Shown one piece after another: positions 48,356 through 50,674 of a stretch of 64,000 bases of DNA; the first letter of the stretch is position 1; each line of letters begins with the position of its first letter. This stretch comes from Patellaria atrata CBS 101060 (Eukaryota). Location: NCBI GenBank assembly GCA_010093705.1, contig MU006093.1:367557-431556 (forward strand), read 5' to 3'. A program made the translations under genes and the position numbers. The notes beneath the pieces are model-generated. The model was not told where the DNA came from and did no database searches. It worked only from the letters and a program-made list of their open reading frames with translations.

Positions 48356-49008
48356 TGATAGATGGGCTATCGTCCCATATGAGTTGAAAGCATTCGGACT
48401 GTTTGAATACTTATTATCTTGAAAATAAGCTGCTGATGGTAGGTCAGCCATGCATTGTCTGGAAGTGTGCTGTTAGCCGCAGGTGGGGTTATGGAGAGCA
48501 GGCTCTGGGTGATGCAAAGGCGCGTCAAAGAGCAAGCTTGGAGGCTACATTATACGGAGCTTTACTCGATGCTTGAGCCTGGAGAGACAACTTTGCACGC
48601 TTGATAACGGCTATCGCTAAAGGATATCTGGCCTTAAATTTGTCCCCAGAGCTGGATATTCGTTCTAACCTACTAGACTTCTATACCTTAAAGCGAGAGA
48701 CATATCGAGTGCTGCACAGTAGTGTTCGTATAAACCATCTCATCAAGTGTTCCATATCAATTCTCAGAGCTTCAGTTTGGCTTTTGCAAATTATTTTGGC
48801 TGATTGCTGGTTCGTGGGCTGCAGGAGAATATTGACTGCGAGATCGGAATAAGGTTATCTTATCAGTGATCTGACCTGTCGCTTAGTCACGTAATGCTTG
48901 GCATCAAAGCTCAAACCCCAGAGCCTCAACTTCGAGATTCTTCCGTCTGCAGCTTCCGCAGAAAATACTCAAACCACATCATCAACTACTCCATTACTAC
49001 TCGTCAAG

Positions 49009-49863
49009 ATGCCAAAATATAAGTTCTCCCGTCGCTTGCTCTTTGAAACTCTACTGACAATCTAAGAACTCTTCTGTAGGTTCACCCAATCGCGAAAAGC
49101 CGTTCAAATGCCCATACCTAACAGACTATAGGCGATTACTGCGATGTCTACCTCACCCACGACTCGATGAGCGTGCGCAAAGCCCACAACAGCGGTCGCA
49201 ACCACCTCCGTAACGTCGTAGAATACTACCAGCGTTCGTACCCTCGTACCCTTCCTCCACTCTCCCCCAATCCAACAAACCCACACTAACCCTCCCACGA
49301 CACCAGAAATCGGCCACGAAAAAGCCCAAAGCGTCATCGACTCCATCACTTCCTCCTACGCCGCAGCCGGCCAATCAGAAAGCAATCCAATGCTAAACCC
49401 ACCCCCCGGCGGACCCGGCGCCTTTCCACCACCCCCCTTCGGTTTCCCAGGTACCTTCCCCCTCCCCCCTTCTCACCCTCCGACTAACCAAACCCAAGCT
49501 GGCATCCCACCCCCCTTCCTCCCCCCAGGCGGACGGGGCATGCCTCCCAACCTCCCCTTCCCACCCCCTAACATGCCACCGGGCCAACTGCCTTTCCCGC
49601 CGCCTTTCCCCCCTCCAGGAAACATGCCGCAAGGTAGCGTTCCACCGATGGGCGGCACACCGCCGCAAGGGATGCCGTTTCCGCCGCCGAACATGCCGTT
49701 CCCACCGCCGCAGGGTATGCCGTTCCCGCCGAACATGCAGGGAGGACCGGGCGGTATGCCGTTCCCGCCGCAGGGGAGCCCGCCGGGTGGGATGCCTTTC
49801 CCGCCGCCCGGGCAGGGGCAGGGGAGTCCGCCGGGTGGTATGCCGTTCAGAGCTCCGATATAG
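49009..49863 (+). CDS. YHC1: U1 snRNP protein C (matrin-type zinc finger + Pro/Gly/Met-rich tail); intron 1 is AT-AC and exon 2 is 6 nt
   Basis: [54 protein letters not shown] reconstituted with introns 49019-49069 (AT-AC), 49076-49131 and ~49234-49306. A probable in-frame intron at ~49451-49498. Confidence 0.92.
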
Positions 49864-50674
49864 CTGGGAGGGAGGTCGGGGGGATAGCTCAAAGGGTTAT
49901 TTGATGGATGAGAGTGTTGGAGTCGCGATGCGCGGGACTGACAACGATATACCTGGCATTTACGGGATGCGAAGAAGACGCTAGTTGTTGCTGTTAGCTG
50001 GGCCGGAATGTCGGTGAGGTCGTTCCTATCTTGCTTGCGGTTGCCGCGGTCTCGGCTAATGCGGCGTTTGGGGGTGCAGTATAGTTCGCGGTGAGATTTC
50101 TCAGGGAGGAACTTTAAGCATCTAAAATGTAATTCTACAAATCAAGGATTCGGTATTAGAGTAAAAAATATTGACAATCTCGCTGACAAACGTTGTGGTA
50201 CTGTTGGACGAAGAATCGTTGCGTCTGCTTTCGCTCCCGTAATTCGTGCTCTATCTGAACCTTCCTTCAGATTCGACATCAAAGTCCCCTTTTCACATAT
50301 ATCGTTTTAGTTCCCTTTTCGTCTTTAATCATATCTACCCGTCTCTAGGTATACATACATGCTCCCTTCCGTCTATCTCATAACCCGCAAACGTACTATT
50401 TTCATAAAGACATGATGTCAGAAAGATGGACGGGAATCACTATCGCACAGAAGGAAGAAAGTTTCAATTGATTCATTTTTCGATTTCGCTACAGATAGAT
50501 AGCCATTAATATCCCAGTGAGCATTTTTGCGCTTACCAAAAGATTTCCCGCCGTTGTAATCAACACCATGCAAAGCAAAGTACCACACCCCTAAAGAGGT
50601 AGTGCAAGGATGTAATTTACAAACCTCCCCCGCTGCATCTTTTTCTCGTTAAGTTCCGCTCACGTAGAGCAACT

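What the first reader, a model, noticed from the sequence alone, without database searches (positions are those of the whole stretch)
49019..49075. U2-like AT-AC intron plus a 6-nt micro-exon at the start of the U1-C gene
Seen: ATG CCA AAA T|ATAAGT...TACTGAC...AAGAAC|TCTTCT|GTAGGT...TAG|GC GAT TAC TGC. Only an intron running AT (49019) to AC (49069) yields the conserved MPKFFCDYC zinc-finger start. Apart from its first and last base it looks U2-type: ATAAGT is GTAAGT with G1>A, and the branch is CTGAC. It lacks the U12 donor ATATCCTT. Established: ascomycetes lack the minor spliceosome; reciprocal first/last-base changes to A...C can rescue major-spliceosome splicing in yeast; U1-C stabilises U1 pairing with 5' splice sites. 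Inference: a natural non-canonical donor in the gene for a 5' splice-site recognition factor suggests a feedback sensor.
Basis: partly seen in the sequence, partly recalled or inferred. Interest (0 to 1): 0.8.

Follow-up and report, generated by a model that had tools for sequence, protein, structure and literature searches.

The report
Conserved AT-AC intron in fungal U1-C
The gene for the splicing protein U1-C in this fungus opens with a rare intron that starts with AT and ends with AC instead of GT and AG, followed by a six-base exon; many related moulds, black yeasts and a lichen fungus share the oddity, which helps explain why the gene is so often mis-annotated.

Summary
Window 49009-49863 (+) encodes U1-C (Pfam zf-U1). 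The conserved start MPKFFC, including the essential zinc ligand Cys6, is obtained only by removing a 51-nt intron that runs from AT (49019) to AC (49069). A 6-nt micro-exon follows (49070-49075), then a normal 56-nt GT-AG intron.

Independent read-based contigs show the same letters. The intron has the U2-type AT-AC donor /ATAAGT, a CTGAC branch motif 12 nt from its end, and no U12 boxes.

At the same position, 5 of 80 related metagenome loci have AT-AC and 13 have GT-AG or GC-AG. None is mixed. Read-through gene models give the same covariation: first base A with a last-base C or pyrimidine in 14, G with G in 11, mixed 0. AT-AC maps to Dothideomycetes, Eurotiomycetes and a Lecanoromycete. GT-AG maps to Sordariomycetes and Leotiomycetes.

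Two transcript-like Aureobasidium contigs, 97% identical, show one form with the AT-AC intron retained and one with it precisely removed.

It is a new, deeply conserved member of the known class of U2-type AT-AC introns. No RNA was available for this organism. The "feedback sensor" idea is untested, and the simplest version of it would give positive rather than homeostatic feedback.

The parts
49009..49018 (+). Coding part of exon 1: start codon, Pro, Lys and the first base (T) of codon 4. The 5' UTR extent is unknown.
   Evidence: The same 10-nt exon end (pattern ATGCC.AA[AG]T) occurs in all 18 intron-bearing related loci.
49019..49069 (+). Intron 1, 51 nt, with ends AT...AC. Donor ATAAGT is 49019-49024. 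Branch motif CTGAC is 49054-49058 (A at 49057, 12 nt from the end). The last bases are AAC. If the intron is retained, an in-frame TAA follows at 49063-49065. An AG at 49065-49066 must be bypassed; using it would create a TAA.
   Evidence: Letters confirmed by read-based contigs. Homologous AT-AC introns are in L016, L020, L037, L062 and L066.
49070..49075 (+). 6-nt micro-exon TCTTCT. It supplies bases 2-3 of Phe4, all of Phe5 and base 1 of Cys6.
   Evidence: The same micro-exon followed by GTAGGT is in L016, L020, L045 and L066 (L066 as TCTTTT). L059 has TTTTCT with GTATGT.
49076..49131 (+). Intron 2, 56 nt, canonical GT-AG (GTAGGT ... CTAAC at 49118-49122 ... TAG).
49132..49233 (+). Exon 3: the rest of the U1 zinc finger (Cys6 bases 2-3, Cys9, His24, His30).
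   Evidence: Pfam PF06220 zf-U1, E 2.5e-17, 62.8 bits (cut-off 22). Residues 1-32 match profile positions 7-38 of 38, so the first 6 profile positions lie upstream.
49234..49306 (+). Intron 3, 73 nt, GT-AG (GTTCGT ... CTAAC at 49286-49290 ... CAG).
   Evidence: An intron at this place is also present in L016, L020, L059, L062, L064, L066, L074 and L077.
49307..49450 (+). Exon 4 (conserved [17 protein letters not shown] segment).
49451..49498 (+). Intron 4, 48 nt, GT-AG (GTACCT ... CTAAC at 49484-49488 ... AAG).
49499..49863 (+). Exon 5 coding part: proline-rich repetitive tail and the stop codon (49861-49863).

Best explanation
Window 49019-49069 is a genuine spliceosomal intron of the U2-type AT-AC class ("AT-AC II"). 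It is the first intron of the U1-C gene of a Pezizomycotina fungus. The encoded protein is closest to Dothideomycete ones.

Shown:
- The letters are real.
- Only this excision, together with the 6-nt micro-exon, restores the invariant MPKFFC start and Cys6.
- The homologous intron in relatives is either A...C or G...G at its two ends, never mixed.
- In a related genus (Aureobasidium), a transcript-like contig has exactly this AT...AC segment removed.

Inferred:
- The major spliceosome removes it. U1 pairs with +2 to +6 of AUAAGU. The A at +1 and the C at the last position replace the usual G-G contact needed for the second catalytic step.
- The 3' end is probably chosen by distance from the branch point. 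It is the first usable AC, 11-12 nt downstream of the branch A.
- With only 6 nt between the two introns, they are probably removed one after the other, in either order.
- The AT-AC state probably arose once from a GT-AG intron at the same position, in the common ancestor of Dothideomycetes, Eurotiomycetes and Lecanoromycetes.
- It has probably persisted because each single reversion (GT-AC or AT-AG) would cripple splicing of an essential gene. This is a compensatory trap rather than a dedicated regulatory device.
For: Gene identity:
- zf-U1 hit.
- Clean 208-aa five-exon model.
- MPKFFC and the finger are invariant in 23 of 23 aligned homologues.
- Changing Cys6 to Ala in yeast Yhc1 is lethal (PMC3985668, abstract and passages).

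Uniqueness of the join.

Letters: 0 differences in read-based contigs at depth 317 and 417.

Signals:
- /ATAAGT equals the strong consensus of known U2-type AT-AC introns (PMC5029451 passage).
- The branch motif is CTGAC.
- 0 of 6 AT-AC introns contain ATATCC or a CCTT[AG]AC box.

Comparative DNA, 80 loci:
- 60 have a contiguous MPK[FY]FC start.
- 5 are AT-AC, 12 are GT-AG and 1 is GC-AG at the identical phase-1 position.
- L045 has exon 1 joined to the micro-exon.
- 1 locus is cut at its 5' end. None is mixed.
- AT-AC introns are 50-57 nt. Their donor is ATAAGT in 5 of 6 and ATATGT in 1 of 6. The branch A lies 11-12 nt from the end in 6 of 6.
- The 10 distinct GT/GC-AG introns are 51-151 nt, with that distance 9-25 nt.
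- The AC used is the first AC after the branch A in 5 of 6. In L037 an earlier AC lies only 8 nt from it.

RNA-level evidence in a relative:
- L037 and L045 are 97.2% identical over 941 nt, share 22 of 22 nt of the 5' end, and end within about 18 nt (5') and 10 nt (3') of each other.
- L037 keeps a 50-nt AT-AC intron and lacks intron 2. L045 has exon 1 fused to TCTTCT and keeps intron 2.
- Their exon-4 peptide is identical to Aureobasidium proteins.
- Aureobasidium genome-based models read through both introns (MPKYK...[Y/H]SSVG: P0061, P0232, P0234, P0235, P0239).
- The A. pullulans EXF-150 model P0122 starts MPKFFC.
- Control: L015 against L041 is 100% identical on both sides of a 100-nt GT-AG intron at the same site.

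Read-through signatures in 294 proteins:
- Both ends are decodable in 25: A with C or pyrimidine in 14, G with G in 11, mixed 0.
- Every GT/G case that shows an exon-4 peptide carries the motif seen in named Sordariomycete or Leotiomycete proteins. Every AT/C case that shows one carries a Eurotiales or Dothideomycete/Lecanoromycete-type motif (taxonomy).

No U12 splicing in Pezizomycotina (PMC2846911 passage).
Against: - No RNA from the window's own organism could be examined, so excision there is inferred.
- L037 and L045 are taken to be transcripts because they are co-terminal and lack the other introns. I could not see the sample type. If they are genomic, they show precise intron loss at these borders rather than splicing.
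- Dependence on the major spliceosome is not tested. No genome was held in which to look for U11, U12, U4atac or U6atac.
- The protein signatures fix the first intron base. They fix the last base only for the LFC/VFC cases. In the micro-exon read-through cases they distinguish only pyrimidine from purine.
- The counts are not phylogenetically independent (5 of the 14 AT cases are Aureobasidium).
- The single-origin claim rests on a class-level phylogeny that I recall, not one I computed.
- The window's last three intron bases are AAC. The other five are CAC (4) or TAC (1), so this copy has the least typical 3' end.
Confidence: 0.78

Rival explanations
1. Regulatory reading. The non-canonical ends make intron 1 a rate-limiting or U1-C-sensitive step, so that U1-C output is coupled to the cell's capacity to recognise 5' splice sites, or is simply throttled.
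For: - U1-C hydrogen-bonds the pre-mRNA backbone from -2 to +3.
- A +1 mismatch oligonucleotide (+1C) competes better for U1 snRNP when U1-C is present (PMC4383343 passages). The mismatched +1 therefore lies under U1-C's footprint.
- The state is conserved across three classes.
- One transcript-like contig (L037) retains only this intron.
- AT-AC introns are rare in fungi: 0.03% of RNA-seq-supported introns in one study (PMC4084796 passage). Finding one in a 5' splice-site factor is a notable coincidence.
Against: - Untested here.
- If U1-C helps its own donor the loop is positive, which does not stabilise the level of an essential protein.
- Sordariomycetes and Leotiomycetes have GT-AG or GC-AG at the same site, and 60 of 80 loci show no intron there, with a near-identical zinc finger.
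- L045 shows the opposite intermediate: intron 1 gone, intron 2 retained.
- Conservation is expected from the compensatory trap alone.
- The coincidence argument is made after the fact.
Confidence: 0.12
2. Artefact or dead gene: an assembly or sequencing error at the two intron ends, a pseudogene, or a functional transcript that uses another start or exon.
For: - No RNA evidence exists for this organism.
- The runs laid may be the same sample as the assembly.
Against: - 0 differences at depth 317 and 417 in independently built contigs.
- Two coordinated errors would be required.
- The same AT-AC structure occurs in 5 independent loci and in at least 10 genera or unnamed lineages of read-through models.
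- The frame is intact over 208 aa.
- No other MPK[FY][FY]C-coding stretch exists in the window.
Confidence: 0.02
3. The intron is removed by something other than the major spliceosome: a cryptic minor spliceosome, or a non-spliceosomal route.
For: - The AT-AC ends.
- The 11-12 nt distance from branch to 3' end lies within the range I recall for U12-type introns.
Against: - The donor is /ATAAGT (or /ATATGT), not /ATATCCTT.
- There is no U12-type branch box in 6 of 6.
- The branch motif is the ordinary fungal CTRAY, as in introns 2-4 of the same gene.
- U12 components and introns are reported absent from Pezizomycotina (PMC2846911).
- Homologous introns in sister classes are ordinary GT-AG.
Confidence: 0.03
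4. The micro-exon is skipped and 49019-49131 is removed as one AT...AG intron, giving a protein that starts MPKC.
For: - It is in frame.
- Ten public gene models start MPKC directly before DYCD.
Against: - All ten MPKC models come from lineages whose donor begins with G, so they are predictor artefacts of micro-exon skipping.
- An A at +1 combined with a G at the end is the pair reported to block the second step unless the last base becomes C (PMC1557818 section 20).
- MPK[FY]FC is the start in 162 of 294 proteins, and no model that reaches the true start has any other start.
Confidence: 0.02

Closest known systems
U2-type (type II) AT-AC introns of animals (SCN4A/SCN5A, TAF2 and others; Sheth et al. 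2006, PMC1557818, section 20 read in full)
   Same: They have AT...AC ends and a donor that matches the U2 consensus apart from +1 (strong /ATAAGT consensus, as quoted in PMC5029451). They are conserved in orthologues and very rare.
   Different: This one is in filamentous ascomycetes that lack a minor spliceosome altogether. It is a ~51-nt fungal intron with a CTRAY branch 11-12 nt from the end. It sits in the U1-C gene and is followed after 6 nt by another intron. Sheth et al. mention fungi only as hypothesised cases in xylanase genes.
Engineered yeast intron with first-base G-to-A rescued by last-base G-to-C (Parker and Siliciano 1993; known to me only through citations in PMC5029451 and PMC1557818; original not read)
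   Same: The same reciprocal pair A(+1)/C(last) in an otherwise canonical major-spliceosome intron.
   Different: This is a natural, fixed and anciently conserved allele of an essential gene, not a laboratory double mutant.
Endogenous AT-AC intron nested in the S. cerevisiae RPL30 intron (Gould et al. 2016, PMC5029451, passages read)
   Same: An AT-AC junction in an ascomycete without U12 machinery.
   Different: The RPL30 event accounts for 1-2% of transcripts, is non-productive, and has a donor unlike /ATAAGT. The intron here is the obligatory productive route and has the consensus donor.
U12-type AT-AC introns
   Same: The terminal dinucleotides, and a short distance from branch to 3' end.
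   Different: There is no /ATATCCTT donor and no U12 branch box. The host lineage is reported to lack the minor spliceosome.
Autoregulated snRNP and splicing-factor genes (for example U1A, and U1C acting on U1-70K in humans; recalled, no paper read here)
   Same: An unusual RNA-processing signal inside a gene for the machinery that reads such signals.
   Different: No regulatory evidence exists for this locus, and the expected sign of the loop would be positive.

Membership tests
U2-type (type II) AT-AC intron | The intron begins with AT and ends with AC | tested here: met
   Letters confirmed in read-based contigs.
U2-type (type II) AT-AC intron | The 5' splice site fits the U2-type consensus except at +1 (/ATAAGT) | tested here: met
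   ATAAGT at 49019-49024. Consensus as quoted in PMC5029451. 5 of 6 homologous AT-AC introns have ATAAGT and 1 has ATATGT.
U2-type (type II) AT-AC intron | No U12-type donor or branch boxes | tested here: met
   0 of 6 AT-AC introns contain ATATCC or CCTT[AG]AC. The branch-box motif used in this test is recalled.
U2-type (type II) AT-AC intron | Borders preserved in orthologues | tested here: met
   5 related loci and 14 read-through protein models, across three classes, with perfect covariation of the two ends.
U2-type (type II) AT-AC intron | Excised from RNA exactly at these borders | tested here: inconclusive
   For the window's organism there is no RNA run. In Aureobasidium-like contigs, L045 has the segment precisely removed and L037 retains it. 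Their RNA origin is inferred, not recorded.
U2-type (type II) AT-AC intron | Splicing depends on U1, U2, U4 and U6 snRNAs, not on U11, U12, U4atac or U6atac | not testable with these tools
   Literature only: U12 splicing is reported missing in Pezizomycotina (PMC2846911). No genome was held.
U12-type intron | /ATATCCTT-type donor | tested here: not met
U12-type intron | Conserved branch box close to the 3' end | tested here: not met
   The spacing (11-12 nt) would fit, but the motif is CTRAY, with no shared CCTT box.
U1-C / Yhc1 (Pfam zf-U1, PF06220) | zf-U1 domain above Pfam's gathering score | tested here: met
   62.8 bits against a cut-off of 22, E 2.5e-17, for exon 3 alone.
U1-C / Yhc1 (Pfam zf-U1, PF06220) | Zinc ligands Cys6, Cys9, His24 and His30 behind an MPK[FY][FY] start | tested here: met
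   Met only with the AT-AC plus micro-exon model. The columns are invariant in 23 of 23 homologues. Ligand numbering is from PMC3985668.
Stwintron (spliceosomal twin intron) | A splice signal of an outer canonical intron is interrupted by an inner canonical intron, so that canonical GT/AG ends appear after the first excision | tested here: not met
   Read from the sequence. The bases that abut the exons are A (49019) and C (49069), whatever is removed inside. Removing the internal GT...AG segment 49023-49066 also breaks the frame.

The most novel reading that the evidence does not exclude
The AT-AC ends are kept by selection as a sensor. Recognition of the +1-mismatched donor needs U1 snRNP fully loaded with U1-C, so productive U1-C mRNA is made only in step with functional U1 particles. 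Alternatively the slow intron sets a ceiling on U1-C. The adjacent 6-nt micro-exon enforces ordered, mutually exclusive recognition of the two introns. This would be a built-in quality gauge of 5' splice-site recognition, conserved across three fungal classes.
Probability: 0.1. Interest if true: 0.8.

Novelty: new member of a known kind. Interest (0 to 1): 0.5.

Why it matters
- It is a natural, anciently fixed counterpart of the classic A(+1)/C(last) rescue experiment. It sits in an essential gene of genetically tractable fungi (Penicillium, Aureobasidium) that have no minor spliceosome. That makes it a clean system for asking how the major spliceosome handles non-GT-AG ends and how a 3' end is picked without AG.
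- It shows how a compensatory pair can be locked in for a very long time.
- Together with the 6-nt micro-exon, it explains why public U1-C models in Pezizomycotina so often lack the first zinc ligand. Only 162 of the 294 proteins fetched here have a correct start, in a sample that is not unbiased. It also gives a simple rule to repair them.
- The location in the U1-C gene invites, but does not establish, a regulatory link.

Tried and rejected
- RNA evidence for this organism: no RNA holder was listed. The two runs laid were DNA contigs.
- Whole genome: none is held, so there was no search for U12-type snRNAs, variant U1 genes or other AT-AC introns.
- Earlier findings of the scan: nothing.
- Rfam on the whole window: 0 matches.
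- Taxonomic placement of loci by summed tblastn bits: abandoned. Fused gene models and proline-rich tails inflate the scores. I used the exon-4 peptide motif instead.
- The apparent closeness of the window to L074 (83% over 254 nt): L074's exon-4 peptide carries the motif seen in named Sordariomycete proteins and the window's does not, so I attribute the match to conserved coding sequence and base composition rather than relatedness.
- Third protein search, meant to place the L046/L051-L056 GT-AG group: no close named relative was found, so it could not root the character.
- DNA alignment one search used wrong coordinates for three loci. It was replaced.
- Literature: searches found no paper describing an AT-AC intron in U1-C. 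Many hits were polyketide-synthase domain strings ("KS-AT-ACP"). One search was badly designed and uninformative.
- Readings considered and rejected: stwintron; a single AT...AG intron that skips the micro-exon; use of the AG at 49065-49066 (creates TAA); another start codon or exon; a U12-type intron.
Full report
**What is in the window**

ATG CCA AAA T ends at 49018. The next bases are ATAAGT (49019-49024). A CTGAC branch-like motif lies at 49054-49058. The segment ends ...AAGAAC at 49069. TCTTCT follows at 49070-49075. Then comes GTAGGT (49076) ... CTAAC (49118-49122) ... TATAG (49131), and then GC GAT TAC TGC.

Read straight through from the ATG, the frame stops after 18 codons, at TAA 49063-49065. 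The stretch from 49134 is a U1 zinc finger: Pfam PF06220, 62.8 bits against a cut-off of 22, E 2.5e-17. It matches profile positions 7-38 of 38, so the first six positions of the domain must be encoded upstream.

The full model has exons 49009-49018, 49070-49075, 49132-49233, 49307-49450 and 49499-49863. It gives an uninterrupted 627-nt frame of 208 residues starting MPKFFCDYCDVY. Introns 2, 3 and 4 (56, 73 and 48 nt) are ordinary short fungal GT-AG introns with CTAAC branch motifs.

**Is the AT-AC reading forced?**

A script tried every exon-1 end, every micro-exon of 1-30 nt, and the direct join.
- Six joins with a micro-exon give MPK[FY][FY]C.
- Only one of them has a GT donor for the following intron and a known terminal pair for the first. 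That is exon 1 ending at 49018 with micro-exon 49070-49075, making intron 1 AT...AC.
- The direct join 49018|49132 gives MPKC. It would be an AT...AG intron, the combination that stalls splicing unless the last base is also changed (PMC1557818, section 20).
- No other stretch on either strand of the window could encode MPK[FY][FY]C.

A nested ("stwintron") solution is excluded by inspection. The bases touching the exons are A and C whatever is removed inside.

The missing residues matter. MPKFFC and the whole finger are invariant in 23 of 23 aligned homologues. In yeast Yhc1, changing Cys6 to Ala is lethal (PMC3985668, abstract and passages). Cys6 here is T 49075 plus GC 49132-49133.

**Are the letters real?**

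Only two runs hold the stretch. Both behave as DNA, and they are one sample and one study. Their Logan contigs cover 48700-49400 with 0 other letters and 0 gaps, at word depths 317 and 417. This may be the sample the assembly came from. Even so, it is an independent assembly of the reads, and two coordinated errors would be needed. No RNA run was found.

**Relatives, DNA**

A profile of 23 correctly started U1-C proteins (A1) was used to fetch 80 metagenome loci, the best 80 of 309 confirmed. Sorted by script:
- 60 have a contiguous MPK[FY]FC start. These are intron-less genes on long contigs, or spliced transcripts.
- 1 is cut at its 5' end (L060).
- 18 carry an intron at exactly the same phase-1 position after ATGCCNAAR-T. 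Of these, 5 are AT-AC (L016, L020 and L066 with a micro-exon and second intron; L037 and L062 without). 12 are GT-AG (L059 with a micro-exon). 1 is GC-AG (L074).
- L045 has exon 1 already joined to the micro-exon.

L052, L053, L054 and L056 are 98% identical, which leaves 10 distinct G-type introns. No locus combines A with G, or G with C. From 6 (with the window) against 10 and 0 mixed, Fisher's exact probability is 1/8008, not corrected for shared ancestry.

The AT-AC set is tight:
- Length is 50-57 nt.
- The donor is ATAAGT in 5 of 6 and ATATGT in 1 of 6. G at +5 and T at +6 are invariant.
- The branch motif is CTRAY.
- 11 or 12 nt separate the branch A from the intron end in 6 of 6.
- The last three bases are CAC (4), TAC (1) or AAC (the window).

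The G-type set is looser. Length is 51-151 nt, +5 and +6 vary, and 9-25 nt follow the branch A.

In 5 of 6 AT-AC introns the AC used is the first one after the branch A. In L037 an earlier AC lies only 8 nt away. None of the six contains ATATCC or a CCTT[AG]AC box.

**Evidence at the RNA level, in a relative**

L037 (1045 nt) and L045 (1030 nt) come from two samples of one series.
- They are 97.2% identical over 941 nt and share the first 22 nt around the start codon.
- They begin within 18 nt and end within about 10 nt of each other.
- They carry the whole coding region without the downstream introns. That is the behaviour of transcript contigs. The sample type itself was not visible to me.
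- L037 retains a 50-nt ATAAGT...CTAC segment and has TCTTCT fused to exon 3. L045 has ATGCCGAAAT fused to TCTTCT and retains a GTAGGT...CAG intron.

Their exon-4 peptide is identical over 45 residues to Aureobasidium proteins. Five Aureobasidium gene models made from genome assemblies (P0061, P0232, P0234, P0235, P0239) read MPKYK...[Y/H]SSVG before DYCD. This is a read-through of T|AT AAG......xAY|TCT TCT|GTA G. So in that genus the genome holds both introns at once.

The simplest reading is that L037 and L045 are two half-spliced forms of one architecture, and that the AT-AC segment is excised precisely. The A. pullulans EXF-150 model P0122 starts MPKFFC, and that exact sequence is also on record from Logan assemblies.

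As a control for the approach, L015 matches L041 at 100% on both sides of a 100-nt GT-AG intron at the same site.

**Relatives, proteins**

Three searches and one cluster look-up gave 305 proteins. Of these, 294 contain DYCDVYL.
- 162 have a correct MPK[FY]FC-type start (one MPRFFC included).
- Many of the rest are read-through or mis-spliced models whose wrong N-termini betray the DNA.
- MPKY[KN...], or the shifted frame C[RQ]NI[SC], means the first intron base is A. MPKC..., or C[RQ]NV, means it is G.
- ...LFC before DYC means the last base is C, and ...VFC means G.
- [H/Y/N/D]S[SF]VG means a pyrimidine before the micro-exon, and [Q/K/E]S[SF]V means a purine.

Both ends are decodable in 25 proteins: A with C or pyrimidine in 14, G with G in 11, mixed 0. 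Five of the 14 are Aureobasidium.

Named carriers of the A-type donor:
- Dothideomycetes: Aureobasidium spp., Saccharata proteae, Neophaeotheca triangularis, Microthyrium microscopicum, Sporormia fimetaria, Rhizodiscina lignyota and Clohesyomyces aquaticus.
- Eurotiomycetes: Penicillium capsulatum, P. atrosanguineum, P. oxalicum, P. rubens and P. maclennaniae. Polytolypa hystricis shows the pyrimidine acceptor only.
- Lecanoromycetes: Lambiella insularis.

(lineages checked for six of these species; the rest are recalled.)

Named carriers of the G type are Sordariomycetes (Gaeumannomyces, Geosmithia, Colletotrichum, Trichoderma, Thielaviopsis) and Leotiomycetes (Hymenoscyphus, Golovinomyces, Rutstroemia). 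Their classes are recalled.

Sorting by the exon-4 peptide gives no exception. Every G-type protein that shows the peptide has the motif seen in named Sordariomycete or Leotiomycete proteins. Every A-type protein that shows it has a Eurotiales or Dothideomycete/Lecanoromycete-like motif.

The window's protein is closest to A. pullulans (67.5%) and Rhizodiscina (69.5%) among the proteins fetched. The organism is therefore probably a Dothideomycete.

**How it most likely works**

Shown:
- The intron's position, ends and signals.
- Covariation of the two ends.
- Conservation across three classes.
- Precise removal in an Aureobasidium-like transcript contig.

Inferred:
- The major spliceosome removes it. 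The donor is the /ATAAGT that characterises the few dozen known U2-type AT-AC introns (PMC5029451 passage; PMC1557818). The branch motif is the ordinary fungal one. Pezizomycotina are reported to lack both U12 snRNAs and U12 introns (PMC2846911).
- The A(+1)/C(last) pair is the one that restores the second step in engineered yeast and human introns (cited; originals not read).
- The invariant +5G/+6T and the fixed 11-12 nt from the branch to the AC suggest two things. The rest of the donor compensates for the lost G:C pair with U1. The 3' end is picked by distance rather than by an AG-reading factor. In the window and in L062, an AG three bases upstream has to be passed over; in the window it would create TAA.
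- Because only 6 nt separate the acceptor of intron 1 from the donor of intron 2, the two are probably recognised one after the other. L037 and L045 suggest that either order occurs.

**Evolution**

The same intron position is shared by both states. The A-type occupies Dothideomycetes, Eurotiomycetes and a Lecanoromycete. The G-type occupies Sordariomycetes and Leotiomycetes, plus an unplaced group (L046, L051-L056, L059).

With the class-level tree as I recall it (the first three classes together, sister to the latter two), a single GT-AG to AT-AC conversion in their common ancestor suffices. The rest is explained by intron losses (for example the 60 contiguous loci) and by gain or loss of the second intron. 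I could not root this, because one search failed to place the unplaced group.

Once fixed, the pair is trapped. Either single reversion should damage an essential gene. Long conservation therefore needs no extra function.

**The feedback-sensor idea**

There is a rational basis. U1-C contacts the pre-mRNA backbone from -2 to +3 and gives extra stabilisation to a +1-mismatched site (PMC4383343). But nothing here tests it, and several points weigh against it.
- The loop would be positive: less U1-C, poorer recognition, still less U1-C.
- The zinc finger is virtually the same in A-type and G-type lineages.
- Whole classes do without the feature.

I give it about 0.1 as an added function. A related and weaker version, a slow intron acting as a throttle, is equally untested.

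**Comparison with what is known, and novelty**

U2-type AT-AC introns are a described class.
- Sheth et al. counted 15 in human, 6 in mouse and 3 in fly. They mention only hypothesised cases in fungal xylanase genes.
- RNA-seq-based fungal annotations report about 0.03% AT-AC junctions (PMC4084796).
- F. graminearum has a validated handful of non-canonical sites (PMC3577648).
- AT-AC is rare in fungal annotations generally (PMC7072748).
- S. cerevisiae has one minor, atypical case in RPL30.

In eight informative full-text searches I found no description of an AT-AC intron in U1-C or of its distribution. Some database models (A. pullulans EXF-150, A. novofumigatus, A. luchuensis) already have the correct N-terminus. 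The splice is therefore implicitly annotated in places, but not discussed.

I file it as a new, unusually well conserved member of a known kind. Interest is moderate (0.5). It is a neat natural experiment in tractable fungi and a practical fix for a widespread mis-annotation, with an intriguing but unproven link to the function of the gene it sits in.

Noticed in passing
Proteins P0001-P0305: Public and metagenomic U1-C models of Pezizomycotina are often wrong at the 5' end. Only 162 of 294 have an MPK[FY]FC-type start. Many of the others lack Cys6, start inside the finger (MSVRKAH...), skip the micro-exon (MPKC, 10 models) or are fused to neighbouring genes (up to 780 aa). The sample is biased, because the first query carried intron-derived residues.
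   Followed up: partly
L074:~1100-1210: A GC-AG intron (GCAAGC...CCAG, 51 nt) sits at the same phase-1 position in a contig whose exon-4 peptide is Sordariomycete-like. It is a third terminal-dinucleotide state of the same intron.
   Followed up: partly
L016 (donor) and proteins P0078, P0087, P0103, P0305: A Penicillium-type variant donor, ATATGT, occurs in place of ATAAGT. Gene predictors use the GT at +5/+6 as a false donor, which gives the recurring wrong peptide ...RCRNIC before DYCD.
   Followed up: partly
L020, L066; proteins P0020, P0064, P0077, P0089: Many AT-AC introns end ...ATGCAC. The intronic ATG seeds spurious ORFs that start MHS[SF]VG (intron tail, micro-exon and the start of intron 2).
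   Followed up: no
window 49065-49066; L062 (AG 9 nt after the branch A): An AG lies 3 nt upstream of the AC that is used, and must be ignored by the spliceosome. In the window its use would create a TAA. In L062 it would insert one codon.
   Followed up: partly
window 49499-49860 (+) and 49473-50141 (-): The C-terminal exon is a proline-rich repeat (GMPFPPP-like units). The 222-aa antisense ORF over it is a glycine-rich mirror image and probably not a gene.
   Followed up: no
L001-L014 and other loci on contigs up to 240 kb: Sixty of 80 loci have no intron at the MPK|F position. Several of them are on long genomic contigs, so the intron has been lost, or was never present, in a number of lineages. 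L062 (AT-AC) shares an upstream neighbour region with some of these.
   Followed up: no
L045 against L037, proline-rich region: L045 has a one-base difference in length relative to L037. It shifts the frame of its called protein (P0125 ends differently). This is either an assembly error or a strain difference.
   Followed up: no
window 1-64000: No Rfam family reaches its gathering score anywhere in the window.
   Followed up: yes
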